A DNA stretch of 64,000 bases from an uncultured Pseudomonadales bacterium (GTDB lineage Bacteria > Patescibacteriota > Microgenomatia > UBA1400 > PJMF01), in contig CAZWWE010000002.1 in NCBI GenBank assembly GCA_964637295.1, positions 117,952 through 181,951 of the forward strand. Reading direction: 5' to 3'. The notes below the pieces were generated by a model. That model ran no database searches. It was not told the DNA's origin and worked only from the letters and a program-made list of their open reading frames with translations. The position numbers were made by a program, and so were the translations under genes. Shown here in pieces: positions 1-20,935 of the stretch (positions within the stretch are counted from its first letter, which is position 1; the number at the start of each line of letters is the position of its first letter).

Positions 1-1378
1 ATTCTTAGAAAGCGCTCGGCCTCTAGCTCAACAGCTCAACATTAAAGATGATTTTCAGCCACCGCTGATGCATTTGATCACTTTTTTAAGTATTCGCCTA
101 GGTAATTTATTTGGCCTGGGTCAAAGCGAATGGTTTTTGCGCATCATTCCTAGTCTTATTCCCGGAATTCTAAGTATTTGGGCACTTTATCAGCTCGCTC
201 TGAAGCTAACTAATCGCAAAATTGCACTGCTTAGCAGTCTTTTCCTTGCCACTTCCTCTTTTCATATTTTTTATTCTCAAGAACTACGTCCTTACAGTTT
301 GCCCACACTCTGGGGCATTTTAGCCACTTGGCAGATGCTGCTAATGCTCAAGAGCAAAGCAAAAAAACCACTCATTCTATTTATTATTTTTTCTATCCTC
401 GGACTTTATTCCTCTTATCTCTATCCATTTTTACTGATCGGCCAATTTATTTATTTATTCAAAGAAAAATTATCTTTTTCCAAAATTCTTGTTTCGGGTG
501 GCATTATCCTTGCTGGTTTTTTACCTTGGCTGCCCAAGTTCTTGGAACAATTACAAGCAGGTCAAGCCCTACGTATAAATATGCCTGGCTGGTCAGAGAC
601 TGTGAGCTTGCCAGTCTTTAAAACTGCTTTGATTTTGCCGCTTAAATTTGTTTTTGGCGTCGCTGATTTGGAAATAAACTTGGCTTATGCATTTTTAGCT
701 CTAGTTGTTTTTGCACCCCTAGCTTATTTGCTCTTTTTAAGCTTGCGCCAAAAACAAAAAAACTTAAGTTTCTTCTTTTGCATTTTGTTTTTACCCTTAG
801 TTACAAGTTGGCTGGTTTCTTTTTTTATCCCAGTATTGCAAGCCAAAAGAGTTTTATTCCTTTTGCCCATTTTTGCCTTGCTTGAAGCGTTTTTGATTGA
901 CACTTATCATAAGCAAAAAACATATTTAGTTAAAATCTTAGTTTCTTCTATCCTCATCATCAATCTGTTTAGCACTTTGGCTTATTGGACTAAGCCACAA
1001 TTACAGCGAGAGAACTGGCGCGCTTTAAGTCAAGAAGTTTCTGCTAAATTTCCCAAGAGTGAAACCGCTCTTGTTTTTTCTTTTGCTCATCCCTTCGCTC
1101 CATGGGAATTTTATGACCAAGTAGGGTTTAAAACTTTTAGTTCCGGTGTTTACTATTCTAACAATCTAGAAAATCCCGCAGAAACTTTCAAAGGCTTGAG
1201 TGATTATTCTTATGTACTTGTTTTTGACTATCTACGAGACCTAACCGACCCAGATGGCATCGTGCTTAAGGCCGTACGCGATCTAGGTTTCAAAGAGATC
1301 GGCGTGCTAGACTATCCTAACATTGGTTTTGTGCGCATTTACACCTTGGACAACATTATTATTGCAAAGGCAAAATAA
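1..1378 (+). CDS. GT-C fold membrane glycosyltransferase, ArnT/PMT-like (GT39/GT83, PMT_2-type); 5' partial, frame open to the window start
   Basis: The reading frame is open from base 2. The upstream residues ..IKDDFQPPLMHLITFLSIRLGNLFG.. match the conserved first-loop DE/PPL motif of ArnT/PMT-family enzymes. TM1 appears to lie outside the window. The protein is multi-TM and hydrophobic. The ORF-track Met at 68 is probably internal. Confidence 0.7.
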   Translation, partial: FLESARPLAQQLNIKDDFQPPLMHLITFLSIRLGNLFGLGQSEWFLRIIPSLIPGILSIWALYQLALKLTNRKIALLSSLFLATSSFHIFYSQELRPYSLPTLWGILATWQMLLMLKSKAKKPLILFIIFSILGLYSSYLYPFLLIGQFIYLFKEKLSFSKILVSGGIILAGFLPWLPKFLEQLQAGQALRINMPGWSETVSLPVFKTALILPLKFVFGVADLEINLAYAFLALVVFAPLAYLLFLSLRQKQKNLSFFFCILFLPLVTSWLVSFFIPVLQAKRVLFLLPIFALLEAFLIDTYHKQKTYLVKILVSSILIINLFSTLAYWTKPQLQRENWRALSQEVSAKFPKSETALVFSFAHPFAPWEFYDQVGFKTFSSGVYYSNNLENPAETFKGLSDYSYVLVFDYLRDLTDPDGIVLKAVRDLGFKEIGVLDYPNIGFVRIYTLDNIIIAKAK

Positions 1379-1381
1379 AAA

Positions 1382-2527
1382 ATGAAGATTGGCATCGATA
1401 TTTCTAGTTTAACTTACCAGCGTGGTGTTTCTCGCTATACTGGTGACCTGGTGAAAGCCCTTGCTCAAGAAAAAAATACGCAACTTTTTCTCTATGGTAG
1501 TTCACTGCGCCAACAAAAAATTCTTAAAAACGAATTACGCAAAGTTTTACGCAATGTCACTCCTGATCGCTACGATTTGAAATTGCAAAGTTTGCCACCT
1601 TCGCTTTTAGCGAAATTATGGCGTTTTGGACTTAATCCTATCGGCTCACATTTCCCCAAATTAGATGTTTTTCATAGTTGGGATTGGCTCCAACCACCAG
1701 ATAGAAACATCCCGCTCGTTTCCACTGTTCATGATTTGGCGATTATTCGCTATCCGCAAGTCGCTCACCCCAAAGTTCTCAAGATGCACCAACGTTCTTG
1801 GCAAACTTTACGTGACAGAGAAGCTCAAATTATTGCTGTTTCTCATTCCACTAAAAACGACATTATGCGTTATTTAGAAATTCCCGAAAAAAATATTTCT
1901 GTTGTTTATGAGGCATTGCCCACACAAGTAGCAGAAATTAGTCGAGAATTAGCTGATCAACCTGAACTAGTCGCTTCCATTAAGCGCAAGTTACAGTTAG
2001 ACAAGCCGTATTTATTCTTCGTCGGCACCAGAGAGCCTCGCAAAAACTTAGCTCGCCTCATTCAAGCTTGGTTACCTCTAGCTAATGACTATCAATTGAT
2101 CGTTGCTGGTGAACAAGCTTGGGACGGCAGTGAGAAAATTAGCCAAAACTCCAATTTACGTTTCATGGGTCGAGTTAGTGATCAAGAATTGGCAGTTTTA
2201 TATCATCATAGTGAACTCTTTGTTTATCCGAGTCTTTATGAAGGTTTTGGGTTGCCTGTTTTGGAAGCTTTCTCCCACGGTGTGCCTGTGGTTGCTTCAA
2301 ATATTCCTGCGATTAGAGAAGTAGCTGGCAACGCTGCGGAACTTTGCAATCCTTTGGATGAAAAGTCTATCCGTCAAGCTATCGAAAAAGTCCTTCATGA
2401 AAAAAAACTAGACAGCGAACAACGTATGAAAAAAATGATTATTCGCTTACAACTTTTTAACTGGCAAAAAACTGCCTTGCAAACTTTGGCAGTTTATCAA
2501 AAAGCGATTGATAATTTTGGAAACTAA
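1382..2527 (+). CDS. glycosyltransferase family 1 (GT4-type)
   Basis: C-terminal EX7E-type motif YEGFGLPVLEAFSHGVPVVASNIPAIREVAG, typical of GT4 retaining glycosyltransferases. Confidence 0.8.
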   Translation: MKIGIDISSLTYQRGVSRYTGDLVKALAQEKNTQLFLYGSSLRQQKILKNELRKVLRNVTPDRYDLKLQSLPPSLLAKLWRFGLNPIGSHFPKLDVFHSWDWLQPPDRNIPLVSTVHDLAIIRYPQVAHPKVLKMHQRSWQTLRDREAQIIAVSHSTKNDIMRYLEIPEKNISVVYEALPTQVAEISRELADQPELVASIKRKLQLDKPYLFFVGTREPRKNLARLIQAWLPLANDYQLIVAGEQAWDGSEKISQNSNLRFMGRVSDQELAVLYHHSELFVYPSLYEGFGLPVLEAFSHGVPVVASNIPAIREVAGNAAELCNPLDEKSIRQAIEKVLHEKKLDSEQRMKKMIIRLQLFNWQKTALQTLAVYQKAIDNFGN

Positions 2528-3692
2528 TATGCTCAAAATCGCCATTGATGGCAACGAGGCCAATGTACCAAATCGAGTCGGGAGCAATACTTATGCCTTT
2601 GCTATCATTTCTGAGCTTTACAAACTAACTGCTAATCGTAAAAATATTGATATCACCATCCTTTTATCTAGTAAAAAATTAGCAGATTTGCCAGCAAGTA
2701 GAAATAATTGGCGCTACATGGTGCTTGGTCCAAGAAAATTTTGGACCCAATGGGCTCTGCCAATTCATCTATTTTTACACCAGAAAGATTATCAAGTATT
2801 TTTTACTCCCTCTCATTATGCTCCACGCATCGCCAGTGTGCCTTATGTCAGTAGCGTCATGGATCTGGCTTATTTACACTATCCAGAACAATTCCGTCGC
2901 ACTGATCTTTTGCAACTCAAAAATTGGACTAAATATAGCGTTAAAAATGCTCGTAAAATCATCACCATCAGTAAATTTTCCAAAAAAGAAATTGAACAAC
3001 ATTATCAGCGTCAAAGCAAAGACATTGTTGTCGCTTATCCTTCTTTTCAATTACCAAAGAGCGCTCCTATTGAAGAAATTAAAGCTTTTTTCAAAGCCAA
3101 ACAAATTAAAAACAAATATTTTCTTTATCTAGGCACCCTGCAACCTCGCAAAAATATCCTTAGTGTTGTTAGCGCCTATGAAGAATTTTTGCGTAAATTA
3201 GCGGCTCACAATCTCAAAACCAAAAATAAGCAGGCTAGGAAAATTATTGAGCCAGATTTAGTAATCGCTGGCAAAATTGGCTGGTTAGCTGATGAAATTT
3301 TAGCCCGCATAATTAATTCACCTTATAAAAATAAAATCATTCTAACCGGCTTTGTGGAAGATAAGTTCAAGCGTGCTCTTTATCAAAACGCTACCGCTAG
3401 CTTGTTGCTCTCTCTCTATGAGGGCTTCGGCATTCCCGCTTTGGAATCCATGCAAGCTGGCACTATTCCAATTGTGGCCAATAATTCTAGCTTGCCAGAA
3501 GTGGTCGGACAAGCTGGCTTTTTAGTAGCAGCCAAAGATACTCATCAAGTTAGCGATGCTATGCTGACGAGTTATCAAATGCCTTACAAAGAATTACTTA
3601 AATATAAAACTGCCATGCGTCGCCAAGCTAAAAAATTTGACTGGCAAGAATCTGCCAAAATCATTTTAAAAATACTTGAACATGAAAAATAA
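2508..3692 (+). CDS. glycosyltransferase family 1 (GT4-type)
   Basis: Motif YEGFGIPALESMQAGTIPIVANNSSLPEVVG. Overlaps the upstream gene by 20 nt, suggesting translational coupling. Confidence 0.75.
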   Translation: MIILETNMLKIAIDGNEANVPNRVGSNTYAFAIISELYKLTANRKNIDITILLSSKKLADLPASRNNWRYMVLGPRKFWTQWALPIHLFLHQKDYQVFFTPSHYAPRIASVPYVSSVMDLAYLHYPEQFRRTDLLQLKNWTKYSVKNARKIITISKFSKKEIEQHYQRQSKDIVVAYPSFQLPKSAPIEEIKAFFKAKQIKNKYFLYLGTLQPRKNILSVVSAYEEFLRKLAAHNLKTKNKQARKIIEPDLVIAGKIGWLADEILARIINSPYKNKIILTGFVEDKFKRALYQNATASLLLSLYEGFGIPALESMQAGTIPIVANNSSLPEVVGQAGFLVAAKDTHQVSDAMLTSYQMPYKELLKYKTAMRRQAKKFDWQESAKIILKILEHEK

Positions 3693-4179
3693 TCCTATTA
3701 TCGTTGGTATTGATCCGGGCTATGATCGGGTGGGTGTAGCTATTGGCCAAAAAAATGACTCGAAATGGTCGGTTTTAACTTACACTTGTATTCAGACCGA
3801 TAAAAAAGCCAAGCTCTTCGCACGCTACGCTCAAATCGCGCAAGAGTTAGAATCTCTCTTAATTAAATATCAGGTCACTGAGGCCGGCATCGAATCACTA
3901 TTTTGGTTTAAAAATCAAAGCACGGCTCTCGATGTTAGCGAAGCCAGAGGGGTGATTATTGCCACGCTCTTGCGTCAAAAGATCAAAATAGCTGAATATA
4001 CGCCATTGCAGATCAAACAAAGTCTAACTGGCTATGGACGAGCTGATAAAAAAGCGGTAGAAAAGATGGTGAGAAGGGAACTTTCACTAACTGATCAAAT
4101 TATGGATGACACCATCGACGCCTTGGCTGCCATGATTTGCCACGAATGTGCGCGCAAAATGCAGAAAGAAAATTTATGA
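3676..4179 (+). CDS. ruvC: crossover junction endodeoxyribonuclease RuvC
   Basis: N-terminus IVGIDPGYDRVGVAIGQ (RuvC catalytic Asp region). Length 167 aa. Immediately followed by ruvA-ruvB. Confidence 0.85.
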   Translation: MNMKNNPIIVGIDPGYDRVGVAIGQKNDSKWSVLTYTCIQTDKKAKLFARYAQIAQELESLLIKYQVTEAGIESLFWFKNQSTALDVSEARGVIIATLLRQKIKIAEYTPLQIKQSLTGYGRADKKAVEKMVRRELSLTDQIMDDTIDALAAMICHECARKMQKENL

Positions 4180-4757
4180 TTGCTTACTTAGAGGGACAAG
4201 CTTTAATTAAAAAAGATCACTTAATTGTTTTAACTGGCGGAGTAGGCTATTTGGTTTTTGTAGGTTCTAAAATTCTTCATAGTCTAGTCGCTGATGGCGA
4301 GCTAATCACTCTTCATATTTACAGCCACATCAAGGAAGACCGCTTCGAACTTTATGGTTTTCAAAATGAGGAAGATTTAGAAATTTTCAAAATGTTAATT
4401 GCTATCTCTGGTGTTGGTCCTAAAACCGCCCTTGCTTTGGCTAATGCTGGCACCAATCAACTTATCGAAGCTGTGCAGCAAGCTCAAACTAGTTTCTTTA
4501 CTAATGTGCCAAGAGTTGGTAAGAAATTGGCCCAAAAAATTATCATTGAACTAAAGAGTAAATTAGGCAGTCTCAAAGAACTTAATTTAGGCACGCTCTC
4601 ACCTAAAGCTCAGGATGTGATGGACGCTTTATTAGGGCTTGGTTTTGAAGAAAATGCTGTGCAAACTATTCTGTCTCAGCTTGATTTAGAAAATATGGAT
4701 TTACAGGTGGCGATTAAAACCGTCATTAAAATGAGTAATAATCAATCAATGTCTTAA
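4137..4757 (+). CDS. ruvA: Holliday junction DNA helicase RuvA
   Basis: MIAYLEG...VLTGGVGYLVFV matches the RuvA domain I OB fold. The GVGPKTALALAN helix-hairpin-helix is present. Length 206 aa. Confidence 0.85.
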   Translation: MPRMCAQNAERKFMIAYLEGQALIKKDHLIVLTGGVGYLVFVGSKILHSLVADGELITLHIYSHIKEDRFELYGFQNEEDLEIFKMLIAISGVGPKTALALANAGTNQLIEAVQQAQTSFFTNVPRVGKKLAQKIIIELKSKLGSLKELNLGTLSPKAQDVMDALLGLGFEENAVQTILSQLDLENMDLQVAIKTVIKMSNNQSMS

Positions 4758-5768
4758 ATGCCAAAAACCAAAACCACCACTACCATCTCCACCAATGATG
4801 AAGAAATGCTCTTTACTTCTTTACGGGCGGAAGACTGGCAAGAATTTACTGGTCAAGAAAATATTAAAAAGTCTCTACAGATTGCCATTAAAGCCGCTAA
4901 GCAACGTCACGAAGCGGTTGATCATGTTTTGTTTTATGGTCCTCCCGGACTGGGTAAAACTACTTTGTCTCAACTAATTGCCAAAGAAATGGGGAGCAAC
5001 TTCAAAGTTACTTCTGGCACTGCTTTATCTAAAACTGGCGATTTGGCTGCTATTTTGACTAATTTAGAAGACGGCGACGTTTTATTCATTGATGAAATTC
5101 ACCGTTTGCCCAAAGCCATCGAAGAAACTTTGTATCCAGCCATGGAAGATTTTGCTTTAGATATTGTTATCGGTAAAGGCCCTTCAGCTCGCACCGTGCG
5201 CTTAGATTTGGCCAAGTTTACTTTAGTGGGCGCTACCACTCGTTTTGGTTTATTAACCGGTCCTTTCAGAGACAGATTTGGCCTAATTCATCGCTTAGAA
5301 TTTTATTCGCCAACTGAATTAGCAAATATTTTGCATGTGGCCAGTGTCAAACTCGAAACCAAATTAGAAGATAAAGCGGCCTTAGCAATTGCCGAGCGTT
5401 CTCGGGGCACACCCAGAATTGCTTTGAAACTTTTCAAAAGAGTCCGTGATTTCGCCCAGGTTCTTGAGAAAAATACCGTTGATTTATCTTTGGTCAAGCA
5501 AGCTTTGAGTATTTTTGAAATTGATGAGCTTGGTTTAGATGAAAATGATCGTCGCTTAATTATGGCGATGATTGAAAAACATCGCGGTGGGCCGGTGGGA
5601 TTAAAAACTCTTGCCGCTTCAATCAATGAAGATCCTGGCACGGTGGAAGAAGTTTTGGAACCATACTTATTACAAATTGGTTTTATGAAGCGCAAGCCAT
5701 CTGGTCGAATACTCAGCCAAAAAGCTTATGCTCATTTTGGCATAAAGCCACCCTCTGATGTATACTAA
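4758..5768 (+). CDS. ruvB: Holliday junction DNA helicase RuvB
   Basis: Walker A LFYGPPGLGKTTL. The FTGQENIKKSL motif, an AAA+ fold, and a 336-aa length are classic for RuvB. Confidence 0.95.
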   Translation: MPKTKTTTTISTNDEEMLFTSLRAEDWQEFTGQENIKKSLQIAIKAAKQRHEAVDHVLFYGPPGLGKTTLSQLIAKEMGSNFKVTSGTALSKTGDLAAILTNLEDGDVLFIDEIHRLPKAIEETLYPAMEDFALDIVIGKGPSARTVRLDLAKFTLVGATTRFGLLTGPFRDRFGLIHRLEFYSPTELANILHVASVKLETKLEDKAALAIAERSRGTPRIALKLFKRVRDFAQVLEKNTVDLSLVKQALSIFEIDELGLDENDRRLIMAMIEKHRGGPVGLKTLAASINEDPGTVEEVLEPYLLQIGFMKRKPSGRILSQKAYAHFGIKPPSDVY

Positions 5769-6396
5769 GCTCATGGCAATTACAGATAAAGACGGCAACC
5801 TCCTTTCAACTTCACAAGTTATTGAAAAAGTTTTCATTCGCCTTAAAACTATTCATCTGGAACTAGTGACTGGTTTACTCTGGTGGTTTGTTGGTTCTGT
5901 TCCCTGCCATTGCTTCCGTCGTTTTTGTTATCGCCTCTCTGGTATGAAAATTGGACGTAAATCCACCATTCACATGGGTGCTCGTATTTATTTCCCTAGT
6001 GGTATTAAAATTGGCGAAGGTACTCTAGTTGGCGAAAAAGCTACTCTGGATGGGCGCAAACAACTCAAAAACTCACATGGCGGCTTAGAAATTGGTAATC
6101 ACGTCGACATTGCTTCTGAAGTGATGATATGGACTAGCCAGCATGATGTTCACAGTGAAAATATGGCCACCGTTGAAGAAAAAGTCACTATTGATGACTA
6201 TGTTTTCATCGGTCCTCGCGCCATTATTATGCCTGGAGTCACTATTGGCAAAGGCGCGATTATCGCGGGTGGAGCAGTGGTGACTAAAGACGTTCCTGCG
6301 ATGAAAATTGTGGCCGGTGTTCCAGCCAAGGAAATTGGCGAGCGTCAAAGTAAAAATCTGAATTACAAACTAGGTCGCCCTAGACTTTTCCAATAA
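5758..6396 (+). CDS. hexapeptide-repeat (LbH) sugar O-acetyltransferase, WcaF/maltose acetyltransferase-like
   Basis: Repeated hexapeptide motifs IGEGTLVGEKATL / IGNHVDIASEV / IGPRAIIMPGVTIGKGAIIAGGAVVTKDVP. Confidence 0.75.
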   Translation: MYTKLMAITDKDGNLLSTSQVIEKVFIRLKTIHLELVTGLLWWFVGSVPCHCFRRFCYRLSGMKIGRKSTIHMGARIYFPSGIKIGEGTLVGEKATLDGRKQLKNSHGGLEIGNHVDIASEVMIWTSQHDVHSENMATVEEKVTIDDYVFIGPRAIIMPGVTIGKGAIIAGGAVVTKDVPAMKIVAGVPAKEIGERQSKNLNYKLGRPRLFQ

Positions 6397-6398
6397 TC

Positions 6399-13978: not shown

Positions 13979-14855
13979 AGCTAAAATGGATTTGAGTATT
14001 ATCATTTTAAATTATAATGGCCAATTCTGGCTGAAAAAACTTCTACCAACACTCAAAAAAAACTATCTTGACAAGAGCAAATATCAAGTTGAACTAATTG
14101 TGGTTGATAACGCTAGTAGCGACGACTCAGTCAAGTTGATGCGTCGTGATTTTAAATGGGCCACTACTATTGAGTCGGGTCGTAATGGTGGCTTTGCTTT
14201 TGGTAACAATGTCGCCATCAAAGGTAATTCTGCCCGTTACGTGATGTTGCTTAATAGCGATACTGAATTTTTACCGAACGATCAATCTAATCTTGATCAA
14301 ATTATTGATTTTATGGATCAAAACACTGACGTAGCAATCACTTCGCCCAGAGTTGAATTGAGTGACGGCTCGCTTGATCCCGCTTCTCATCGCGGGGAAC
14401 CGACTCCTTGGGCCAGCTTAACTTATCTATTAGGACTCGAAAAACTATTTCCCAAATGCAAAATTTTTGCAGGATATCATCAAAGTTACAAAGATTTAAG
14501 CACTATCCATGAAGTTGATGCCTGTACTGGTGCCGCCATGGTGGTGCGCAATAGTGCCATTAAAGAAGTTGGCATGTTAGATGAAATTTTTTTCATGTAT
14601 GCAGAAGATTTAGACTGGTGTAAGCGTTTTCGTGATGCCGGCCATCGCATTGTTTTTTATCCCCGAATTAAAATCATTCATCATAAATATAAATCGGGTA
14701 TTAAAAGCAGTAATAAAAAAACTGCCTCCATTACTCAGCAATATTTTTATAAAACCATGTTGCAGTATTACGATAAACATTACAAAGATAAGTACCCTAA
14801 ATTTTTAAGGGAAATTGTCAGATATTTTGTCTTGATTAAAACTGATGGTCGCTAA
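13965..14855 (+). CDS. glycosyltransferase family 2
   Basis: LSIIILNYNG...VVDNASSDDS...GGFAFGNNVA...LLNSDTEF. Confidence 0.75.
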   Translation: MQKSKAKMDLSIIILNYNGQFWLKKLLPTLKKNYLDKSKYQVELIVVDNASSDDSVKLMRRDFKWATTIESGRNGGFAFGNNVAIKGNSARYVMLLNSDTEFLPNDQSNLDQIIDFMDQNTDVAITSPRVELSDGSLDPASHRGEPTPWASLTYLLGLEKLFPKCKIFAGYHQSYKDLSTIHEVDACTGAAMVVRNSAIKEVGMLDEIFFMYAEDLDWCKRFRDAGHRIVFYPRIKIIHHKYKSGIKSSNKKTASITQQYFYKTMLQYYDKHYKDKYPKFLREIVRYFVLIKTDGR

Positions 14856-15990
14856 AAAAAACTACACTATCGGCATTGATGCTCGTTTATCTGGCGATAA
14901 ACACGCTGGCATTGGACGTTATAGTGAAAATTTAATTAAAAGATTAATTAAGCTTGGTTTGAAGCAACAAAAAAAAATACCAGTTAAATTTGTTTTGTTT
15001 TTCTTTGATCTTGAGCAAGCCAAAACAGTCTTGGGCGAGCTTTATCAAAATAATAACCTAGAAATCATTGTCACTAGCATCAAACACTATGGCTTGGCGG
15101 AGCAATTTTGTTTACCCAAAATTTATCATCAGGCCAAATTGGATTTGCTTTATGTGCCTCACTGGAATGTGCCCATTTTTTATCGTGGCAAATTAGCCAT
15201 TACTATTCATGATTTACTCTGGCATGAACAAAAAGGCAAAGCGGCTACCACCCTCAAAGCCTGGCAATATTATTTGAAGTATTTGGCCTATCGCTACATT
15301 TGTAAAAAAATTGCTAAAAAAGCTCAAGTCATTTTTGTCCCTACTGAAACGATCAAAAAAACTGTCAGTAATTATTATCCCTTTGCGAAAAATAAGCTTA
15401 TCGTCAGCAAAGAGGGTTTGGCCAGTACTTATGAAAGCGCATTACATGTAAGCTCTACGCTCAATCGTCGTATCAAAAAACAATTAATTTATACTGGATC
15501 GCTCTATCCTCATAAAAACCTTAAAGTGGTGATTAAAAGTCTGAGCAAAATTCCTAAATACAAACTGCTCATTGCTTCTTCCAGAAATATTTTTCAAGAT
15601 CAAATTCAAGCGCTAGTGTCACGTTATAAAGTTAAAAAACAAGTAGTTTTTTTGGGCTATGTGCCTGATAAAAAATTACTTGCTCTTTATCAAGAATCGA
15701 CGGCTCTAGTTCAGCCTTCTTTTTCTGAAGGCTTTGGCTTAACCGGTATTGAAGCCATGGCTAGTGGCTTGCCGGTTTTAGCCTCAGATATCAAAGTTTT
15801 TAGAGAAATTTATCAAGATGCAGCTTTCTTTTTTGACCCTCATTCTTGTGAAGATTTTCTCAGAGCGCTCAATGAATTAGAGCTCAGTAATAGAAAACAG
15901 GCGATAGAAAAAGGTCATCAAATTGCCAATCAATACAGTTTTGACAAAATGGCAGGAGAAATCTGGACAGAATTGCAAAAGCAATTATGA
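14845..15990 (+). CDS. glycosyltransferase family 1 (GT4-type)
   Basis: SEGFGLTGIEAMASGLPVLASDIKVFREI. Confidence 0.75.
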   Translation: MVAKKNYTIGIDARLSGDKHAGIGRYSENLIKRLIKLGLKQQKKIPVKFVLFFFDLEQAKTVLGELYQNNNLEIIVTSIKHYGLAEQFCLPKIYHQAKLDLLYVPHWNVPIFYRGKLAITIHDLLWHEQKGKAATTLKAWQYYLKYLAYRYICKKIAKKAQVIFVPTETIKKTVSNYYPFAKNKLIVSKEGLASTYESALHVSSTLNRRIKKQLIYTGSLYPHKNLKVVIKSLSKIPKYKLLIASSRNIFQDQIQALVSRYKVKKQVVFLGYVPDKKLLALYQESTALVQPSFSEGFGLTGIEAMASGLPVLASDIKVFREIYQDAAFFFDPHSCEDFLRALNELELSNRKQAIEKGHQIANQYSFDKMAGEIWTELQKQL

Positions 15991-17165
15991 AAAATCGCAT
16001 TGCGCTCATTTATGATCGCGCCAATACTGCTTATGGTGGAGCAGAGCAAGTCCTCTTAGCTATTCAAAAAATTTATCCTGAAGCCACGCTTTTTAGTTCC
16101 GTCTATAATCCTCAAAAAGCTAAGTGGACTAAAAAATTTAAACAAGTCAAAACTTCTTTTCTGCAAAAGATACCTTTCGCTAGCAACTTTTATCGTTATT
16201 TGGTGGCACTTATGCCTCTTGCTTTTGAAAATTTAGACTTATCTACTTACGAAATAGTGATTTCTGTCACCAGCGCTGAAGCTAAAGGAGTGATTACTCG
16301 TAGAGATCAGCTACATCTTTGCTACTTACTCAGTCCACCTCGTTATCTTTATCACTATCAAGAACAATATTTGCATCAAAATCACCTTTTACGGCTACCA
16401 TTGATTAACTCTTTGACCAAATCTCTTCTAAGTTATTTAAAAAAATGGGACCAATCTGCAATTTTTCGTCCTGATTTGATCATTCCTATTGCTCAAATCG
16501 TCAAAAAGAGAGCAGAAAAATATTATCCACATATTGATTTGGCACCGGTCATTTATCCACCAATTAATACTACTTTAATAAAAAATTTTCCAAGTCAAGA
16601 CAAACCCATGATTAAGGGCAACTACTTACTTTTAGTGGGGCGGCTGGTGCCTTATAAAAACATTGCGGCCGCTATTTTGGCTTGCCAGCAAAGCCAAAAA
16701 AAATTGGTCATTGTTGGCGCTGGTCCTGAAGAAAAGCAACTCAAAAAACTCAATAAAAAACTTAACTCATCGCAAATCATTTTTAAAAAATATTTAGACG
16801 AGCAAAGTTTGGCTAATTTATACCAACATTGCCAAGCTGTTTTAAGTCCTGGTTTAGATGATTTTTCACTCGTGGCTTTAGAAGCAAATTTGTTTGGTAA
16901 ACCAGTCATTATCAATCGATTGGCAGGTGCCGCCGAATTAATTAAAAACGAAATTCATGGTTTACATTTACCCTACACGACCAAAGATTCAGAAGAAACC
17001 ATTGCTGCCAATTTGACCCAAAGCATCAAAAAACTAGAACATTTACGTTTTGAGCCCGCTTCACTTCGCAAAAATGCGTTAAAATATGATACAAATGAGT
17101 TTGTCCTTAATTTTGGTTCTGCTGTAAATAAAGCCTACCAAGCAAAAAAAGAAGGAAAATTATGA
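15987..17165 (+). CDS. glycosyltransferase family 1 (GT4-type), divergent
   Basis: GT-B architecture inferred from LVGRLVPYKNI ... SPGLDDFSLVALEANLFGKPVI. The match is weaker than for the other GT4 genes. Confidence 0.6.
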   Translation: MKNRIALIYDRANTAYGGAEQVLLAIQKIYPEATLFSSVYNPQKAKWTKKFKQVKTSFLQKIPFASNFYRYLVALMPLAFENLDLSTYEIVISVTSAEAKGVITRRDQLHLCYLLSPPRYLYHYQEQYLHQNHLLRLPLINSLTKSLLSYLKKWDQSAIFRPDLIIPIAQIVKKRAEKYYPHIDLAPVIYPPINTTLIKNFPSQDKPMIKGNYLLLVGRLVPYKNIAAAILACQQSQKKLVIVGAGPEEKQLKKLNKKLNSSQIIFKKYLDEQSLANLYQHCQAVLSPGLDDFSLVALEANLFGKPVIINRLAGAAELIKNEIHGLHLPYTTKDSEETIAANLTQSIKKLEHLRFEPASLRKNALKYDTNEFVLNFGSAVNKAYQAKKEGKL

Positions 17166-18265
17166 TCGATAAAAAACAAATTTACGCTGTGTTGCTAGCT
17201 GGAGGTGGCGGCACCAGACTTTGGCCCAAGTCTAGAACCAAAACTCCCAAACAATTTCTTAAATTAACTGGCAATCAAACTATGATGCAGATCGCTGCTG
17301 CTCGCATCAACAAGTTAGTTGATTGGGAAAATATCATTGTGGTAACTAATCAAATTTATCTGGAAGAAGTAAAAAAACAATTGCCAGAAATTAAAGTAGA
17401 AAACATTATTGCTGAGCCAGAAAAACGCGATACAGCTGCAGCGATGCTAGTTGGGGCACTTTATGCTAAAAGTAAAAACGAAAATGCAGTGGTCATTAAT
17501 GCTGCTTCCGATCACATTGTTGATAATATGCCCGAATTTATCAAAGTGATGAATGCTGCTGTTGAAACGGCAGCTGAAAATCCCTATCTTGTCACCATTG
17601 GCATTACTCCTGCTTATCCCACCAGTGCTTTTGGCTACATTAAAGTTGGCCGCGATCTAAAAAAGATTAAACGTGATTTAATGCTTTTTAAAGTCGATAG
17701 TTTTACTGAAAAGCCAAATTTAGCGACTGCGATTGCTTTTATTTCTACCGGTGCTTATTTCTGGAATGCCAACATGTATGTTTGGTCAGCCAAAGAACTC
17801 AAGAGTGCTTTTGCGCGCTTTATGCCTGATATGTTGGCTCTGTGTCAAGAATTAGATCAATTGGACAGTAAAAAATTTCATCAAGCGCTGCCACAAATTT
17901 ATAAAAACATTGAAAGCATTTCCATTGATTATGCCATTAGCGAAAAAGCTGAAAATTTGGTTTTAATTCCAGGCGATTTCGGCTGGAATGATGTCGGCGA
18001 TTGGAAAGTGGTTTATGATTTGGGTAAAAAAGACCTCTCTGGCAACGTGATGTTGGGTGATAAAAAAGAAATTCGCGCACTGTCGGTCAATGCTCATAGA
18101 AATCTTATTCATACTGACGGGCGTTTAGTAGCCGTCTGCGGCGTTGACGATTTAATTATTATTGATACTGAAGAAATTTTAATGGTTTGTCCCAAGAGCA
18201 AGAGTCAAGACGTTAAAAAGCTGGTCGAACGACTTAAAGAAGAAAATAAAAAAGAATATTTATAA
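17162..18265 (+). CDS. manC: mannose-1-phosphate guanylyltransferase (GDP-mannose pyrophosphorylase)
   Basis: N-terminal nucleotidyltransferase signature AVLLAGGGGTRLWPKSRTKTPKQFL. Length 367 aa. Confidence 0.8.
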   Translation: MIDKKQIYAVLLAGGGGTRLWPKSRTKTPKQFLKLTGNQTMMQIAAARINKLVDWENIIVVTNQIYLEEVKKQLPEIKVENIIAEPEKRDTAAAMLVGALYAKSKNENAVVINAASDHIVDNMPEFIKVMNAAVETAAENPYLVTIGITPAYPTSAFGYIKVGRDLKKIKRDLMLFKVDSFTEKPNLATAIAFISTGAYFWNANMYVWSAKELKSAFARFMPDMLALCQELDQLDSKKFHQALPQIYKNIESISIDYAISEKAENLVLIPGDFGWNDVGDWKVVYDLGKKDLSGNVMLGDKKEIRALSVNAHRNLIHTDGRLVAVCGVDDLIIIDTEEILMVCPKSKSQDVKKLVERLKEENKKEYL

Positions 18266-18271
18266 AAATAT

Positions 18272-18898
18272 ATGTCTTACGATCAACAAAAAAGAATTTT
18301 GGATTTATTTGTCGCCAGCATTTTAATTATTGCCTTTTTACCTTTTTGGTTACTCATTCCCATTTTAATTTTTTTCGATTCAGGTTGGCCAGTGATTTTT
18401 ACCCATAAAAGAGTCGGCAAAGACGGTATTGATTTTGAATTATATAAATTTCGTTCCATGGTTTTAAATGCGGATGAAATTTTACATCAAAAAAACCATC
18501 AATTACTGCGAAAATTCAAAAATGGTGATTGGAAAATTGCTGCTAAAGATGATCCGCGTATTACTCCTCTAGGCAGATTTTTGCGCTCTTTTACTATTGA
18601 CGAATTTCCTCAGCTTTTTAATGTCCTTAAAGGACAAATGAGCATGGTCGGTCCCAGAGCTTACGTGCGCAAAGAGTTGGAGGAACAAAGCAAAAAATAT
18701 CCACAAACTAAACAATACATTCCTCACATTCTTTCTGTTAAACCAGGTATTACTGGCCCCTGGCAAACTAGTGGCCGCAATGAAATTCCTTTTGCCAAGC
18801 GAGCACAAATGGATGCAGAATACGCCAATAATCAAAATATTATGCAAGACATCCGTATTTTATTGCGCACCCCCAAAGCCATGTTGTCGAAGTGGTAG
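18272..18898 (+). CDS. polyprenyl-phosphate sugar phosphotransferase (bacterial sugar transferase, WbaP/PglC-like small PHPT)
   Basis: Re-entrant N-terminal helix, then KRVGKDG..F..YKFRSM and DEFPQLFNVLKGQMSMVGPRA. Confidence 0.85.
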   Translation: MSYDQQKRILDLFVASILIIAFLPFWLLIPILIFFDSGWPVIFTHKRVGKDGIDFELYKFRSMVLNADEILHQKNHQLLRKFKNGDWKIAAKDDPRITPLGRFLRSFTIDEFPQLFNVLKGQMSMVGPRAYVRKELEEQSKKYPQTKQYIPHILSVKPGITGPWQTSGRNEIPFAKRAQMDAEYANNQNIMQDIRILLRTPKAMLSKW

Positions 18899-18931
18899 TC
18901 TGTCACACAACCATCTGCTATACTTTTAATT

Positions 18932-20935
18932 ATGGATAATATTTTACCCGACCAAGATCAAGAAATGAGAATTGCCAATCTATTTACTAAAGAAAAAACA
19001 ACTGATTTGCCACCAGCAATATCTAAAAAACCTGCTAAGCGAAAAATCATCTTGAAAAAATGGCAGAAAGCCTTATTGTTAGCTTTTGCCTTTTTATTGC
19101 TCGTCATTACTAGTTTAGCTAGTTATACTGTTTTTATCTTACAAGAAATTAGGCAAAAAGCCGAATACAGCCTGCCATTGGTCAATGAATTAAAAACTGC
19201 TCTCGCTAGCCAAAATCTCCTGACTTTGCCAGAAAAAATTACTCAATTGCAAGCTGCCAGAGAAGATCTCAAAATTAGTTATCAAAAACTAGCTTTTTAT
19301 AGCAAAATTCCTTTGCTTAAAGCCTATTATGCTGATGGACAAGTTTTGTTTGAAGCAGCTGAGCTAGGCTTAAATACCGCTCAAAAAAGCATGGCCGCCT
19401 TATTACCTTATGCCGATCTCTTGGGTTTTCAAGGAGAGGGTTCTTTTACGGGCGGCACCACTCAAGATCGTATTGTTCTTATCTTGAAAACACTTCAAGA
19501 AATTCAACCCACGATTGATCAGATTGATCAGGACATTCAACGCTTGTCCATTTTACTTGGACAAATTAAACCCACTCGCTATCCTCAAAAAATTGGCCAA
19601 CAGTTTCCTAGAGATATGATTGTAAATCTTCAAAAAACTGCTCAATTAGCTAGTCAAACTTTCTCTGATTACAAACCAGTGATCGCTTCACTGGCCAAAA
19701 TGGCCGGAGCAGATGAGCCACAGAAATATTTAGTCTTATTTCAAAATGATAACGAACTGCGTCCCACTGGAGGATTTTTGACCGCTTATGCCATCATTAC
19801 TGTCGATAAAGGCGTAGTTAATTCTGAAAAATCAGATGACATTTATGAACTAGATCAAAAATTTACTCAAAGAGTAGCCATTCCAGAAGCTTTGGGGAAA
19901 TATCTCACTACAGAAAAATATTATCATCTACGCGACATGAATATTTCTCCAGATTTTAAAACGTCCATGGAAAAATTTTATGAAAACTACATTACTGTTA
20001 AAGGTGAGCCTAAAGATATTGATGGCATCATTGCCGTAGACACTCATGTTTTAAGTGAATTACTCAAAATCATCGGTCCAGTTGAAGCCCCAGGTTATGG
20101 TACTTTCTCGGCAGAAAACGACATCCGTTGTGATTGTCCACAAGTGGTTTATGCTCTGTCAGAAATTATTACTAAACCCACTCCCTACATGAGAGAGGAT
20201 CGCAAAGGCGTCTTGGGTCCACTAATGAAAGCCGTTCTAGCCAAAACTTTTGATTTGGATAAAGCCAGATTTCCAGAACTTTTCGCAGTAGCGATCAGTA
20301 GCATTGAAGGTCGTCATTTACAAATGTATTTTATGGATGAGAACAGTCAGCTGGCCACCGAGCAAATCAATGCCGCTGGCCGACTCTTTGAAATCAAAGA
20401 TAACTTAAAAGGCTGGCAAATGGGCAAGAACATGGACTTTTTAGCGATTGTTGATGCCAATTTGGGTGGCGCGAAATCCAATCTTTTTACTAATTACGAA
20501 ATTAAGCAAAGCATTAGCGCTCCCCTTGACGGTCGCTTAGAAAAAACAGTAGAGATTACATATAAAAACACCCGTAAAGCTGACAACTGCAATCTTGAAG
20601 CTGGCAAATTGTGCTTAAACGCCACCCTTAATGATTGGTTAAGAATTTATGTACCCAAAGGAGCGGAGCTGATTGAAATCCAAGGCATTAGTAATCAAGC
20701 TAGCGTTTATGAAGAAGAAAATTTAACCGTAATCGACGGCTATTTCAGTCTGGAACCGATGGGCTTAGCCAAAATCAAGCTTAGTTATAGCATTCCTTAC
20801 ACTGACTCCGTCAACTATAATTTGAAAATGTGGAAACAAGGAGGGATTGAGGCTGTGCCAGTTTTAATTGACGTCACGGGCGGAGAAGAACAATTGCTGC
20901 TAAACAAAGATTTAGATTACAGCACCACCTTCTAA
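18932..20935 (+). CDS. large membrane-anchored extracytoplasmic protein, DUF4012-like
   Basis: Single TM near residue 50, then a 600-aa soluble body. Sequence and genomic context (directly after a sugar transferase) resemble the DUF4012 family. The assignment is from memory and is not verified. Confidence 0.45.
   Translation: MDNILPDQDQEMRIANLFTKEKTTDLPPAISKKPAKRKIILKKWQKALLLAFAFLLLVITSLASYTVFILQEIRQKAEYSLPLVNELKTALASQNLLTLPEKITQLQAAREDLKISYQKLAFYSKIPLLKAYYADGQVLFEAAELGLNTAQKSMAALLPYADLLGFQGEGSFTGGTTQDRIVLILKTLQEIQPTIDQIDQDIQRLSILLGQIKPTRYPQKIGQQFPRDMIVNLQKTAQLASQTFSDYKPVIASLAKMAGADEPQKYLVLFQNDNELRPTGGFLTAYAIITVDKGVVNSEKSDDIYELDQKFTQRVAIPEALGKYLTTEKYYHLRDMNISPDFKTSMEKFYENYITVKGEPKDIDGIIAVDTHVLSELLKIIGPVEAPGYGTFSAENDIRCDCPQVVYALSEIITKPTPYMREDRKGVLGPLMKAVLAKTFDLDKARFPELFAVAISSIEGRHLQMYFMDENSQLATEQINAAGRLFEIKDNLKGWQMGKNMDFLAIVDANLGGAKSNLFTNYEIKQSISAPLDGRLEKTVEITYKNTRKADNCNLEAGKLCLNATLNDWLRIYVPKGAELIEIQGISNQASVYEEENLTVIDGYFSLEPMGLAKIKLSYSIPYTDSVNYNLKMWKQGGIEAVPVLIDVTGGEEQLLLNKDLDYSTTF

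What the first reader, a model, noticed from the sequence alone, without database searches (positions are those of the whole stretch)
1..20935. 21-kb co-directional surface-glycan supercluster with two ArnT/PMT-like GT-C enzymes
About 19 genes lie on one strand with 0-30-nt gaps or overlaps. The operon encodes the enzymes listed in theme 1 of the summary; its lipid-linked candidate route runs from the initiating polyprenyl-phosphate sugar transferase, through manC (GDP-Man donor), to the two ArnT/PMT-like GT-C enzymes. GT-C enzymes use polyprenyl-phosphate-linked sugars on the outer face of the membrane. This gene set therefore suggests assembly of a lipid-linked mannose-containing glycan that is transferred to a surface polymer or protein (S-layer or pilin O-mannosylation-like). 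Two distinct GT-C enzymes in one operon suggests two different acceptor steps.
Basis: partly seen in the sequence, partly recalled or inferred. Interest (0 to 1): 0.55.

Follow-up and report, generated by a model that had tools for sequence, protein, structure and literature searches.

The report
Conserved CPR envelope-glycan gene array
This is a tightly packed set of sugar-polymer assembly genes, including two large membrane enzymes of the GT-C fold, that candidate-phyla-radiation (Microgenomates-type) bacteria keep in almost the same order; it most likely builds a conserved cell-surface glycan by a known type of lipid-carrier pathway, not by protein O-mannosylation.

Summary
The packing is real: 19 + strand ORFs between 1 and 20935, with junctions of -32 to +33 nt. 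The boundaries and content need correction.

- The first gene is cut by the window edge. A Wzx flippase and an epimerase lie upstream.
- Three of the 19 genes are ruvC, ruvA and ruvB.
- EamA and a 466-aa orphan are lineage-specific insertions.

Both large membrane proteins are true GT-C-fold enzymes. They match Pfam PMT_2 (and PMT for #2). The AlphaFold models resemble ArnT, STT3, ALG12 and Pmt4, at 10-14% identity.

The proposed route is not supported:
- PHPT makes Und-PP-sugar, which is not a GT-C donor.
- No Dpm1/GtrB/ArnC-type synthase was found.
- There is no MIR domain.

The gene set fits a Wzx/Wzy-type pathway whose outer-face steps involve the two GT-C enzymes.

New here:
- About 50-78 of 80 Patescibacteria species genomes keep the order GT-C1 to RecO, at housekeeping-like identity.
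- Wzy_C and GT-C#2 are fused into one protein in at least three lineages.
- A distant relative has the array without ruvCAB.

Chemistry, donor and acceptor are all inferred. I class it as a new variant of a known kind, of moderate interest.

The parts
1..1378 (+). GT-C#1. A polytopic GT-C-fold glycosyltransferase (Pfam PMT_2), cut at its 5' end by the window edge. The full protein is 486 aa and has an invariant D24-E25 in its first loop.
1382..2527 (+). GT4a, a cytoplasmic GT-B (GT4 family) glycosyltransferase.
   Evidence: Pfam Glycos_transf_1/Glyco_transf_4. Weak NCBIfam hits only. At the conserved position in related loci.
2529..3692 (+). GT4b, a cytoplasmic GT4 glycosyltransferase. The ATG start at 2529 follows the gene call on the identical contig.
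   Evidence: Syntenic hits in 62 of 80 loci.
3682..5768 (+). ruvC (3682-4179), ruvA (4176-4757) and ruvB (4758-5768). These Holliday-junction genes sit inside the array. They are conserved passengers, not glycan genes.
   Evidence: Pfam RuvC, RuvA_N/HHH_5, RuvB_N. Same position in 51-54 of 80 loci. Absent from the otherwise collinear array in L087.
5758..6396 (+). Hexapeptide-repeat (WcaF-like) sugar O-acetyltransferase.
   Evidence: Pfam Hexapep and NCBIfam WcaF family. Found in 62 of 80 loci at a median 66% identity.
6399..7352 (+). EamA/DMT 10-TM transporter. A lineage-specific insertion and a possible extra flippase or transporter.
   Evidence: Pfam EamA. Ten hydrophobic segments. Found in only 3 of 80 loci.
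7349..8341 (+). GT2a, a GT-A (GT2) glycosyltransferase of the WbbL/rhamnosyltransferase-like type with a conserved ED motif.
   Evidence: The family profile is closest to chondroitin/heparosan synthase, not DPMS/ArnC/GtrB. Fused to a GT-C#2 homologue in P0283.
8351..9751 (+). A 466-aa signal-anchored protein of unknown function. A lineage-specific insertion.
   Evidence: No Pfam or NCBIfam hit. One N-terminal TM segment. 16 homologues in 5.8e9 proteins. Found in 0 of 80 loci. Lowest GC in the cluster at 32.7%.
9770..11374 (+). Wzy_C-family polytopic protein (534 aa). A candidate polymerase or transferase acting on the flipped lipid-linked glycan. It overlaps GT-C#2 by 32 nt.
   Evidence: Pfam Wzy_C 42.9 bits against a cut-off of 31.7. 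Found in 75 of 80 loci. Invariant residues are listed in A5. Fused to GT-C#2 in P0279, P0291 and P0288/P0407. R230 aligns with WaaL R215, and D433 sits at the WaaL H338 motif position.
11343..12782 (+). GT-C#2 (479 aa). A GT-C-fold glycosyltransferase (Pfam PMT_2 + PMT) with a Lys-rich N-terminus and invariant D38/W39/H40/R43/Q44/D46 in its first loop.
   Evidence: The AF2 model has pLDDT 87. Foldseek's best hit is ArnT 5f15, E 1.1e-8, TM 0.67. At least 562 species-genome hits. 444 clusters at 50% identity with E<=1e-30.
12779..13978 (+). GT4c, a GT4 glycosyltransferase similar to TIGR03087 'stp1'.
   Evidence: 215 bits, below the cut-off. Found in 75 of 80 loci at a median 65% identity.
13965..14855 (+). 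GT2b, a GT2 glycosyltransferase paralogous in type to GT2a.
   Evidence: The family profile is closest to chondroitin synthase, TarS and TagF, not DPMS/GtrB. Found in 78 of 80 loci.
14845..17165 (+). GT4d (14845-15990) and GT4e (15987-17165), two further cytoplasmic GT4 glycosyltransferases.
   Evidence: Found in 72 and 63 of 80 loci.
17162..18265 (+). ManC-type mannose-1-phosphate guanylyltransferase. It has the GMP domain only, with no PMI cupin domain.
   Evidence: Pfam NTP_transferase + ManC_GMP_beta-helix. TIGR01479 matches positions 1-353 of 467. Found in 62 of 80 loci. Absent in L087.
18272..18898 (+). Small monotopic polyprenyl-phosphate hexose-1-phosphate transferase (PHPT), the initiating enzyme.
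   Evidence: Pfam Bac_transf 200 bits, full length. NCBIfam EPS_sugtrans/WbaP C-terminal domain. Found in 57 of 80 loci at a median 68% identity.
18932..20935 (+). DUF4012 protein (667 aa). Single-pass with a large ectodomain. A conserved accessory protein of unknown role.
   Evidence: Pfam DUF4012, 95 bits. One N-terminal hydrophobic region. Found in 55 of 80 loci. A DUF4012 gene also sits next to the priming PHPT in the B. longum 105-A eps cluster (PMC5412050). The family is enriched in CPR (PMC6744442).
20941..21480 (+). Short recO (179 aa). The conserved downstream neighbour that marks the 3' end of the glycan genes.
   Evidence: Pfam RecO_N. Found in 49 of 80 loci at the same offset.

Best explanation
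The region is the conserved core of a Wzx/Wzy-type, undecaprenyl-phosphate-linked pathway. It builds a cell-envelope glycoconjugate in a Patescibacteria (Microgenomates/Pacebacteria-like) bacterium.

Proposed steps (all chemistry is inferred):
1. The small PHPT (18272-18898) puts a sugar-1-phosphate on Und-P at the inner face of the membrane.
2. Five GT4 and two GT2 enzymes extend it from nucleotide sugars, including GDP-mannose from ManC. The hexapeptide acetyltransferase O-acetylates it.
3. A Wzx flippase turns the Und-PP-oligosaccharide to the outer face. One Wzx is encoded just upstream of the window, and a second lies at 46797-48056.
4. On the outer face the Wzy_C protein and the two GT-C enzymes polymerise, branch and/or transfer the glycan to its final acceptor. 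Wzy_C and GT-C#2 work as a coupled pair.
5. DUF4012 is an extracytoplasmic accessory protein.

ruvCAB are conserved passengers. EamA and the 466-aa ORF are local insertions.

Shown here: gene content, folds, conserved acidic motifs, synteny and fusions.
Inferred: every chemical step, the sugar identities, the GT-C donor (Und-P-monosaccharide or a lipid-linked oligosaccharide) and the acceptor.
For: - Initiator, cytoplasmic GTs, sugar-nucleotide supply and acetyltransferase were identified by Pfam and NCBIfam.
- The Wzy_C match is above its Pfam threshold.
- A Wzx (Polysacc_synt) lies 3.4 kb upstream on a contig 100% identical to the window. Wzx also sits upstream in relatives L085, L086 and L087.
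- Both GT-C enzymes have confident models with GT-C neighbours only. Both have invariant acidic residues in loop 1.
- Synteny: the order GTC1-GT4a-GT4b-RuvCAB-AcT-GT2a-WzyC-GTC2-GT4c-GT2b-GT4d-GT4e-ManC-PHPT-DUF4012-RecO holds on one strand in roughly 50-78 of 80 species genomes. Of 39 loci with full flanks, 27 keep the order as far as the 10-kb flank reaches.
- Median identities of the glycan genes (41-68%) match those of the embedded housekeeping genes (RuvB 68%, RuvC 47%, RecO 46%).
- Coupling: the Wzy_C and GT-C#2 genes overlap by 32 nt. They are fused in one ORF in at least three separate 50%-identity clusters, and a GT2a::GT-C#2 fusion also exists. The Lys-rich Wzy_C C-terminus and GT-C#2 N-terminus make the fusion topologically consistent.
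- In L087 the two glycan blocks are contiguous, with no ruvCAB. This argues for one functional unit.
- Precedents: extracytoplasmic GT-C steps on Wzx/Wzy-made polymers (PMC8035078), and GT-C enzymes proposed to polymerise and transfer lipid-linked oligosaccharides (PMC10821137).
Against: - No PCP/Wzz co-polymerase, tyrosine kinase, LCP ligase or GtrA flippase was detected among the window ORFs scanned with Pfam.
- No Dpm1/GtrB/ArnC-type synthase was found in the cluster, the window or the flanks of relatives. A monosaccharide donor for the GT-C enzymes is therefore unaccounted for.
- The Wzx gene lies in a variable region, separated from the core by DUF3800 and an epimerase.
- There is no transcript evidence. 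Terminator and promoter scans were uninformative because all hits fall inside ORFs.
- The fusions were each seen in only 1-2 sequences per 90% cluster. None occurs among the 80 closest genomes.
- The gene set could serve more than one product.
Confidence: 0.55

Rival explanations
1. ManC supplies GDP-Man, a polyprenyl-phosphate-mannose is made, and the two ArnT/PMT-like GT-C enzymes O-mannosylate surface proteins (S-layer or pilin) or a polymer at two different acceptor steps.
Against: No Dpm1/Ppm1-type GT2 is in the cluster or window. There is no MIR domain, and the proteins are about 480 aa against about 700 or more for PMTs. ArnT, STT3/AglB and ALG9 score about as well as PMT. ManC is absent from the collinear array in L087. 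PHPT, Wzy_C and seven cytoplasmic GTs have no role in this model.
Confidence: 0.12
2. General protein O-glycosylation. The Und-PP-oligosaccharide made by PHPT and the GTs is transferred en bloc to Ser/Thr of S-layer, pilin or other surface proteins by the Wzy_C protein acting as an O-oligosaccharyltransferase (PglL/WsfB-like). The GT-C enzymes only decorate the glycan.
For: A Wzy_C domain is present. There is no Wzz/PCP and no LCP, as expected if no long polymer is made. The R215-equivalent Arg is invariant. High conservation of all GTs suggests a fixed oligosaccharide structure, as in general glycosylation systems.
Against: The PglL_A motif (PF15864) was not detected. In an ungapped motif comparison, the His essential in WaaL and PglL (H338/H349; PMC3643930) is replaced by an invariant Asp (D433). 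No candidate acceptor gene is conserved next to it. The only adjacent surface protein, the 466-aa ORF, is absent from all 80 relatives.
Confidence: 0.15
3. Two or more unrelated pathways are simply parked together in a compact genome. For example, block A (GT-C#1 + GT4a + GT4b) could make a glycolipid or lipoglycan (PimA/PimB/PimE-like logic), and block B a separate polysaccharide.
For: ruvCAB separate the blocks in most genomes. GT4a and GT4b give weak hits to lipid-glycosylating GT4 families: GlcN-PG synthase, LTA anchor IagA/BgsA and MSMEG_0565. Three loci with full flanks show block B with no block A within 10 kb. Co-directional mixed-function runs are normal in this genome.
Against: Blocks A and B stay adjacent and collinear across relatives with about 40-68% median protein identity. 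They are directly contiguous, without ruvCAB, in L087. All NCBIfam hits of GT4a and GT4b are far below the family cut-offs.
Confidence: 0.15

Closest known systems
Wzx/Wzy-dependent secondary cell-wall polysaccharide pathway of Bacillus anthracis with the GtsA/GtsB/GtsC extracellular glycosylation system (review PMC8035078)
   Same: A lipid-carrier-linked repeat unit is built in the cytoplasm, flipped by Wzx and handled by a Wzy-type enzyme. A GT-C-fold enzyme then works on the outer face of a monoderm envelope.
   Different: Here no GT-A C55-P-sugar synthase, GtrA flippase or LCP ligase was found. The locus has two GT-C enzymes, a PHPT initiator and DUF4012. Wzy_C and GT-C#2 are gene-overlapped and fused in some lineages. 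The whole array is conserved rather than strain-variable.
Lactococcal polysaccharide-pellicle (Wps) pathway, with two GT-C-fold enzymes (WpsH, WpsJ) proposed to polymerise the lipid-linked repeat unit and transfer it onto rhamnan (PMC10821137)
   Same: Two GT-C enzymes sit in one glycan cluster with a Wzx-type flippase and several cytoplasmic GTs. This is a precedent for GT-C enzymes using lipid-linked oligosaccharides, so a separate monosaccharide synthase is not required.
   Different: Wps is initiated by a GacI-like GT2 (WpsA/WpsB) on Und-monophosphate. Here the initiator is a PHPT (Und-diphosphate) and a Wzy_C protein is present. No sequence relationship to the Wps proteins was tested.
ArnT (GT83), the undecaprenyl-phosphate-L-Ara4N:lipid A transferase (PDB 5f15/5ezm)
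   Different: Identity is 10-12%, and neither family profile matches any PDB sequence. There are no ArnC, ArnA, ArnB or ArnD partners. CPR bacteria have no lipid A acceptor in the usual view (background knowledge, not tested).
Eukaryotic Dol-P-Man-dependent GT-C enzymes ALG12/ALG9 (GT22) and PMT (GT39)
   Different: Identity is about 12%. There is no MIR domain and no Dol-P-Man synthase. The initiator is a PHPT, not an ALG7-type enzyme. The resemblance is at the level of fold and pathway logic only.
Bifidobacterium longum 105-A eps/cps cluster (PMC5412050)
   Same: A priming PHPT gene sits directly next to a DUF4012 gene inside a Wzx/Wzy-type polysaccharide cluster of a monoderm bacterium.
   Different: The B. 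longum cluster has a Wzz chain-length determinant. No GT-C enzymes are listed in the part of the gene table that was read. It is strain-variable.

Membership tests
GT-C fold glycosyltransferase superfamily | Polytopic membrane core with the GT-C fold | tested here: met
GT-C fold glycosyltransferase superfamily | Conserved acidic (DxD, DE or modified) motif in the first extracytoplasmic loop | tested here: met
   D24 and E25 are invariant in 34 GT-C#1 homologues. D38 and D46 are invariant in 31 GT-C#2 homologues. hhalign aligns D24 of #1 with D46 of #2. The outside location is inferred from the fold and from the Lys-rich N-terminus of #2.
GT-C fold glycosyltransferase superfamily | Polyprenyl-(di)phosphate-linked sugar donor | not testable with these tools
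   This needs biochemistry.
CAZy GT83 (ArnT-like) | Match to the family model (dbCAN/CAZy HMM); the proxy used here is Pfam PMT/PMT_2 | tested here: inconclusive
   dbCAN is not available. Pfam PMT_2 is above threshold for both proteins, and PMT for #2 only. There is no NCBIfam match and no profile match to any PDB sequence, ArnT included.
CAZy GT83 (ArnT-like) | Cognate Und-P-sugar synthase (ArnC-type GT2) and small flippase | tested here: not met
   The GT2a and GT2b profiles rank ArnC, GtrB and DPMS well below Leloir-type GT2s. There are no ArnC or PpgS NCBIfam hits. EamA is present in only 3 of 80 loci.
CAZy GT39 (protein O-mannosyltransferase, PMT) | PMT N-terminal domain (PF02366) | tested here: inconclusive
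   GT-C#2 scores 41 bits against a cut-off of 22.7. GT-C#1 has no PF02366 hit.
CAZy GT39 (protein O-mannosyltransferase, PMT) | Luminal MIR domains and a PMT-sized protein (about 700 aa or more, as in the solved fungal PMTs) | tested here: not met
   There is no MIR Pfam hit. The lengths are 479 and 486 aa, with only a ~100-aa C-terminal alpha/beta domain.
CAZy GT39 (protein O-mannosyltransferase, PMT) | Polyprenyl-phosphate-mannose synthase in the system | tested here: not met
   None was found in the cluster, the window or relatives' flanks. The rest of the genome could not be searched.
Wzx/Wzy-dependent glycan pathway | Initiating polyprenyl-phosphate sugar-1-phosphate transferase | tested here: met
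   Bac_transf at 200 bits, and the EPS_sugtrans/WbaP catalytic domain.
Wzx/Wzy-dependent glycan pathway | Wzx (MOP-family) flippase | tested here: met
   A Polysacc_synt protein lies 3.4 kb upstream of the window start on a contig 100% identical to the window. A second Wzx is at 46797-48056. Neither lies inside 1-20935.
Wzx/Wzy-dependent glycan pathway | Wzy-type polymerase | tested here: inconclusive
   The Wzy_C domain is above threshold. Polymerase, ligase and O-OTase activities cannot be told apart by sequence.
Wzx/Wzy-dependent glycan pathway | Chain-length regulator (PCP/Wzz) and final ligase (LCP or WaaL) | tested here: not met
   No Wzz, BY-kinase or LytR_cpsA_psr domain is in any scanned window ORF. 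DUF4012 has one TM segment and an unknown role.
WaaL/PglL-type ligases (for the Wzy_C protein) | Conserved Arg/Arg/His triad (E. coli WaaL R215, R288, H338; PMC3643930) | tested here: inconclusive
   R230 aligns with R215 (hhalign, low probability). The ungapped motif [H/D]-N-x9-G-L-x-G puts the invariant D433 at the H338 position. The R288 equivalent was not assigned.
WaaL/PglL-type ligases (for the Wzy_C protein) | PglL_A motif (PF15864) | tested here: not met
   Wzy_C was the only Pfam family at E<=0.001.
Multi-component transmembrane glycosylation system (PMC8035078) | GT-A C55-P-sugar synthase + GtrA/Wzx flippase + GT-C transferase | tested here: inconclusive
   GT-C is present twice and Wzx/EamA candidates exist, but no GT2 of the synthase subfamily was recognised. 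The GT2a::GT-C#2 fusion P0283 keeps open the possibility that GT2a is a partner.

The most novel reading that the evidence does not exclude
Microgenomates-type CPR bacteria carry a class-wide, housekeeping lipid-linked-oligosaccharide assembly line. In it, a Wzy_C-family enzyme (Asp in place of the ligase His) and a dedicated GT-C enzyme form a coupled machine on the outer face of the membrane, fused in some lineages. This machine stands in for the missing LCP/WaaL ligase and attaches a fixed-structure, Wzy-handled glycan to the wall or to surface proteins. That would be an undescribed attachment mechanism and a defining envelope component of this lineage.
Probability: 0.2. Interest if true: 0.65.

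Novelty: new variant of a known kind. Interest (0 to 1): 0.4.

Why it matters
The cell envelope of CPR/Patescibacteria is almost unknown chemically, yet these ultra-small bacteria are thought to live attached to host cells. Surface-glycan loci are usually hypervariable. This one keeps its gene order, and housekeeping-level protein identity, across dozens of species genomes. That points to a fixed and probably important envelope glycoconjugate.

The Wzy_C/GT-C#2 gene overlap and the natural fusions give a concrete protein pair to test. The array is also a compact target set for heterologous expression, and a possible lineage marker.

If the GT-C enzymes turn out to be the final transferases, this would extend the emerging idea that GT-C enzymes can move whole lipid-linked oligosaccharides in bacteria.

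Tried and rejected
- Sequence searches against PDB chains found nothing, even at E<=10. This covers both GT-C proteins singly and as family profiles, the Wzy_C protein and DUF4012. Only fold comparison placed the GT-C enzymes.
- NCBIfam gave no usable name for either GT-C, Wzy_C, DUF4012, the 466-aa ORF or the upstream Wzx.
- The promoter and terminator scan was uninformative. Every terminator-like hit lies inside an ORF, and there is almost no intergenic DNA.
- I considered GT2a or GT2b as the missing Und-P-sugar synthase. I rejected this as the leading reading on profile ranking and on their conserved ED motif (the ED argument rests on general GT2 knowledge). I did not exclude it, because a GT2a::GT-C#2 fusion exists.
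- The afdb50 fold library was not available.
- The exact NCBI source contig (191,905 bp) could not be retrieved. Identical Logan contigs were used instead.
- Literature searches found no description of this array.
- hhalign of the Wzy_C family against E. coli WaaL, and against the window's second Wzy_C, was weak: probability 1.4% and 35%.

Full report
**What is in the sequence**

The + strand carries an unbroken run of ORFs from the window start to 27457. Pfam and NCBIfam assign the ORFs as follows:

| Coordinates | Assignment |
|---|---|
| 1-1378 | GT-C#1 (Pfam PMT_2) |
| 1382-2527 | GT4a |
| 2529-3692 | GT4b |
| 3682-4179 | RuvC |
| 4176-4757 | RuvA |
| 4758-5768 | RuvB |
| 5758-6396 | WcaF-like hexapeptide acetyltransferase |
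| 6399-7352 | EamA transporter |
| 7349-8341 | GT2a |
| 8351-9751 | 466-aa signal-anchored orphan |
| 9770-11374 | Wzy_C protein (534 aa) |
| 11343-12782 | GT-C#2 (Pfam PMT_2 + PMT) |
| 12779-13978 | GT4c |
| 13965-14855 | GT2b |
| 14845-15990 | GT4d |
| 15987-17165 | GT4e |
| 17162-18265 | ManC (guanylyltransferase domain only) |
| 18272-18898 | small PHPT |
| 18932-20935 | DUF4012 |
| 20941-21480 | short RecO |

After RecO come a class II aaRS gene, mraZ, mraW and ftsI. With ATG starts that agree with gene calls on an identical contig, the junctions run from -32 to +33 nt. Three of the '19 glycan genes' are ruvCAB, and the run does not end at 20935.

**Boundaries**

The first ORF has no stop codon upstream inside the window. 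The full protein, P0121, is 486 aa and 100% identical. It starts 28 codons before the window and carries 'WLDEAAQ' in its first loop. A Logan contig (L083) is 100% identical to the window over 4300 bp. Reading upstream of GT-C#1 on it, the genes are an NAD-dependent epimerase/dehydratase, DUF3800, a Wzx flippase (Polysacc_synt) and a RelB gene. In relatives L085 and L086 the region upstream of GT-C#1 is a variable glycan region with Wzx, epimerases, extra GTs and a methyltransferase. Coordinate 1 is an artefact of the window. The conserved core starts at GT-C#1, and a variable part with Wzx lies before it.

**Source**

GC content is 37%. Homologues come from MAGs named Pacebacteria, Woesebacteria, Beckwithbacteria, Microgenomates or 'Patescibacteria group'. 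'Paceibacterota' is now a synonym of the whole phylum Minisyncoccota. The rest of the window is chromosomal:
- cell-division and wall genes, aaRS genes, dnaE, gatCAB and three tRNAs;
- a second Wzx/Wzy_C pair at 46797-49189.

**Are the two membrane proteins ArnT/PMT-like GT-C enzymes?**

Neither protein matches any PDB sequence, whether searched singly or as a family profile. The AlphaFold2 models are confident (pLDDT 87 and 90; pTM 0.89 for both).

| | GT-C#2 | GT-C#1 |
|---|---|---|
| Foldseek top hit | ArnT 5f15, E 1.1e-8, TM 0.67 | STT3, E 4.5e-8 |
| Other Foldseek neighbours | STT3/AglB/PglB, DPY19, ALG9, Pmt4 | best TM-scores: ALG9 0.60, ALG12 0.59, ArnT 0.59 |

- Identity to every solved structure is 10-14%.
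- The two families are only remotely related to each other (hhalign probability 95% over about 200 N-terminal residues). D24 of #1 aligns with D46 of #2.
- The acidic residues in loop 1 are invariant in both families.
- No MIR domain is present, and each protein ends in a ~100-aa alpha/beta domain.

Both are bona fide GT-C enzymes of the ArnT/PMT/STT3/ALG structural class. The evidence does not single out GT39 or GT83, and dbCAN could not be run.

**The proposed route does not hold together**

PHPT makes Und-PP-sugar. ArnT and PMT enzymes need Und-P-sugar or Dol-P-sugar from a Dpm1/GtrB/ArnC-type GT2 (definition of such systems: PMC8035078).

- I built family profiles of GT2a and GT2b from syntenic orthologues. 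The best PDB matches are chondroitin and heparosan synthases, TarS and TagF (50-57 bits). DPMS, ArnC and GtrB score 23-33 bits.
- NCBIfam does contain ArnC, PpgS and dolichyl-phosphate hexose transferase models, as one search shows. It gives no such hit for GT2a or GT2b.
- No other GT2 is in the window.
- None of the short GT2s in relatives' flanks is clearly of that type.

The monosaccharide donor link is missing, though it could be encoded elsewhere in the genome.

**What the gene set fits**

PHPT, seven cytoplasmic GTs, ManC, an acetyltransferase, Wzx and a Wzy_C protein are the parts list of a Wzx/Wzy-type pathway. No Wzz/PCP, tyrosine kinase, LCP or GtrA was found.

For the Wzy_C protein:
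- The PglL_A motif is not detected.
- R230 aligns with E. coli WaaL R215.
- An ungapped comparison of the [H/D]-N-x9-G-L-x-G motif puts the invariant D433 where WaaL has the essential H338. The window's second Wzy_C protein has the same Asp.
- This is weak evidence that the protein is not a canonical WaaL/PglL-type ligase.

**Conservation**

The GT-C#2 family has more than 1596 homologues at 90% clustering. It gives at least 562 hits in species-representative genomes and 444 clusters at 50% identity with E<=1e-30.

I ran tblastn of the window proteins against 80 related loci. The order GTC1-GT4a-GT4b-RuvC-RuvA-RuvB-AcT-GT2a-WzyC-GTC2-GT4c-GT2b-GT4d-GT4e-ManC-PHPT-DUF4012-RecO is kept on one strand at constant offsets. 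Of 39 loci with full 10-kb flanks, 27 show this order as far as the upstream flank reaches.

| Gene | Median identity |
|---|---|
| PHPT | 68% |
| RuvB | 68% |
| aaRS | 67% |
| AcT | 66% |
| GT4c | 65% |
| ManC | 63% |
| GT-C#2 | 53% |
| DUF4012 | 53% |
| RuvC | 47% |
| RecO | 46% |

The glycan genes are as conserved as the housekeeping genes among them. This is unlike O-antigen or capsule loci. EamA (3 of 80 loci) and the 466-aa ORF (0 of 80 loci, 16 homologues in total, lowest GC) are insertions.

**Fusions and a variant array**

Among the family representatives:
- P0279 (1035 aa) and P0291 (1045 aa) are full Wzy_C::GT-C#2 fusions.
- P0288 (800 aa) carries the same fusion on a protein truncated at its N-terminus. 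Its 90%-cluster mate P0407 (943 aa) is named 'O-antigen ligase' by its source.
- P0283 (799 aa) is a GT2a::GT-C#2 fusion.
- All retain the family motifs.

The contig that carries P0291 (L087) has this order: GTC1-like, GT4a, an unknown gene, GT4b, AcT, WzyC::GTC2, GT4c, GT2b, GT4d, GT4e, PHPT, DUF4012, RecO, aaRS. It has no ruvCAB, no GT2a and no ManC.

In the window, the Wzy_C C-terminus and the GT-C#2 N-terminus are both Lys-rich, so a fusion is topologically consistent. None of the 80 closest genomes has the fusion, and each fusion is seen in only 1-2 sequences. The junctions therefore need read-level confirmation. Taken together, these data argue that:
- the two glycan blocks are one unit;
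- ruvCAB are passengers;
- Wzy_C and GT-C#2 act together.

**Mechanism proposed**

The steps are those listed under the best explanation: PHPT initiation, cytoplasmic extension and O-acetylation, flipping by Wzx, then processing on the outer face by Wzy_C and the two GT-C enzymes. Two published precedents make the outer-face GT-C steps ordinary in kind:
- GT-C decoration of Wzx/Wzy-made wall polymers (B. anthracis GtsABC; PMC8035078);
- the lactococcal pellicle pathway, in which two GT-C enzymes are proposed to polymerise a lipid-linked oligosaccharide and transfer it (PMC10821137).

The second precedent shows how GT-C enzymes could work here without a monosaccharide synthase. It also shows how one of them could replace the missing LCP/WaaL ligase. 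DUF4012 sits next to the priming PHPT in Bifidobacterium longum as well (PMC5412050), and it is a CPR-enriched family (PMC6744442).

**Verdict**

The locus is a member of a known kind of pathway with an unusual architecture: two orphan GT-C enzymes, Wzy_C/GT-C coupling, no recognisable ligase or co-polymerase, and lineage-wide conservation. No paper in the searchable library describes it. Interest is moderate (0.4). It would rise if the coupled Wzy_C/GT-C transferase idea were confirmed.

Noticed in passing
window 46797-49905: A second Wzx flippase (46797-48056, Polysacc_synt_3) is followed directly by a small Wzy_C protein (48068-49189, 373 aa). That protein also has Asp-Asn where WaaL has His-Asn. 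A Big_6/Glucodextran_B surface protein converges on the pair from the - strand (49186-49905). This could be a separate minimal glycan system, or the flippase for the main array.
   Followed up: partly
window 24052-27457 (+) and 36297-45509 (-): The division and cell-wall genes are split over two strands: mraZ-mraW-ftsI on +, and murB-murA-mraY-ftsW-murG-(234-aa unknown)-ftsA-ftsZ on -. There are two SEDS paralogues (31122-32216 and 40967-42073). Much of the 64-kb window (roughly 0-49 kb) is envelope-related, interspersed with housekeeping genes.
   Followed up: no
window 8351-9751 and 6399-7352: Two lineage-specific insertions lie between the acetyltransferase and Wzy_C. One is a signal-anchored 466-aa protein with only 16 homologues in 5.8 billion proteins, the lowest GC in the cluster (32.7%) and no counterpart in the 80 related loci. 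The other is an EamA transporter, present in 3 of 80 loci.
   Followed up: yes
window 35689-36174 (-): A 161-aa ORF matches only positions 1-85 of the 252-position RhuM virulence-family profile. It sits after a ~600-nt gap downstream of the large class I aaRS gene (32230-35085). It may be a truncated remnant of a mobile-element gene.
   Followed up: no
loci L003-L082 (record titles); L012 = CP011212.1: Many species-representative CPR MAGs that carry this array are titled 'uncultured Pseudomonadales bacterium'. The complete genome CP011212.1 is titled 'candidate division TM6', although its GT-C#2 homologue (79% identical) is named Pacebacteria by NCBI. Record titles are unreliable for taxonomy here.
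   Followed up: partly
L083:666-3239 (upstream of the window start, same organism): A RelB antitoxin gene and a DUF3800 gene sit between or beside the Wzx and epimerase genes, in the variable region just upstream of the conserved array.
   Followed up: no
L088:819-3218: In a short metagenomic contig, a GT2a-type GT2 is fused directly to a GT-C#2 homologue (799 aa). The locus has no Wzy_C or GT4c gene. This variant architecture may bear on whether GT2a is the lipid-sugar partner of GT-C#2.
   Followed up: partly
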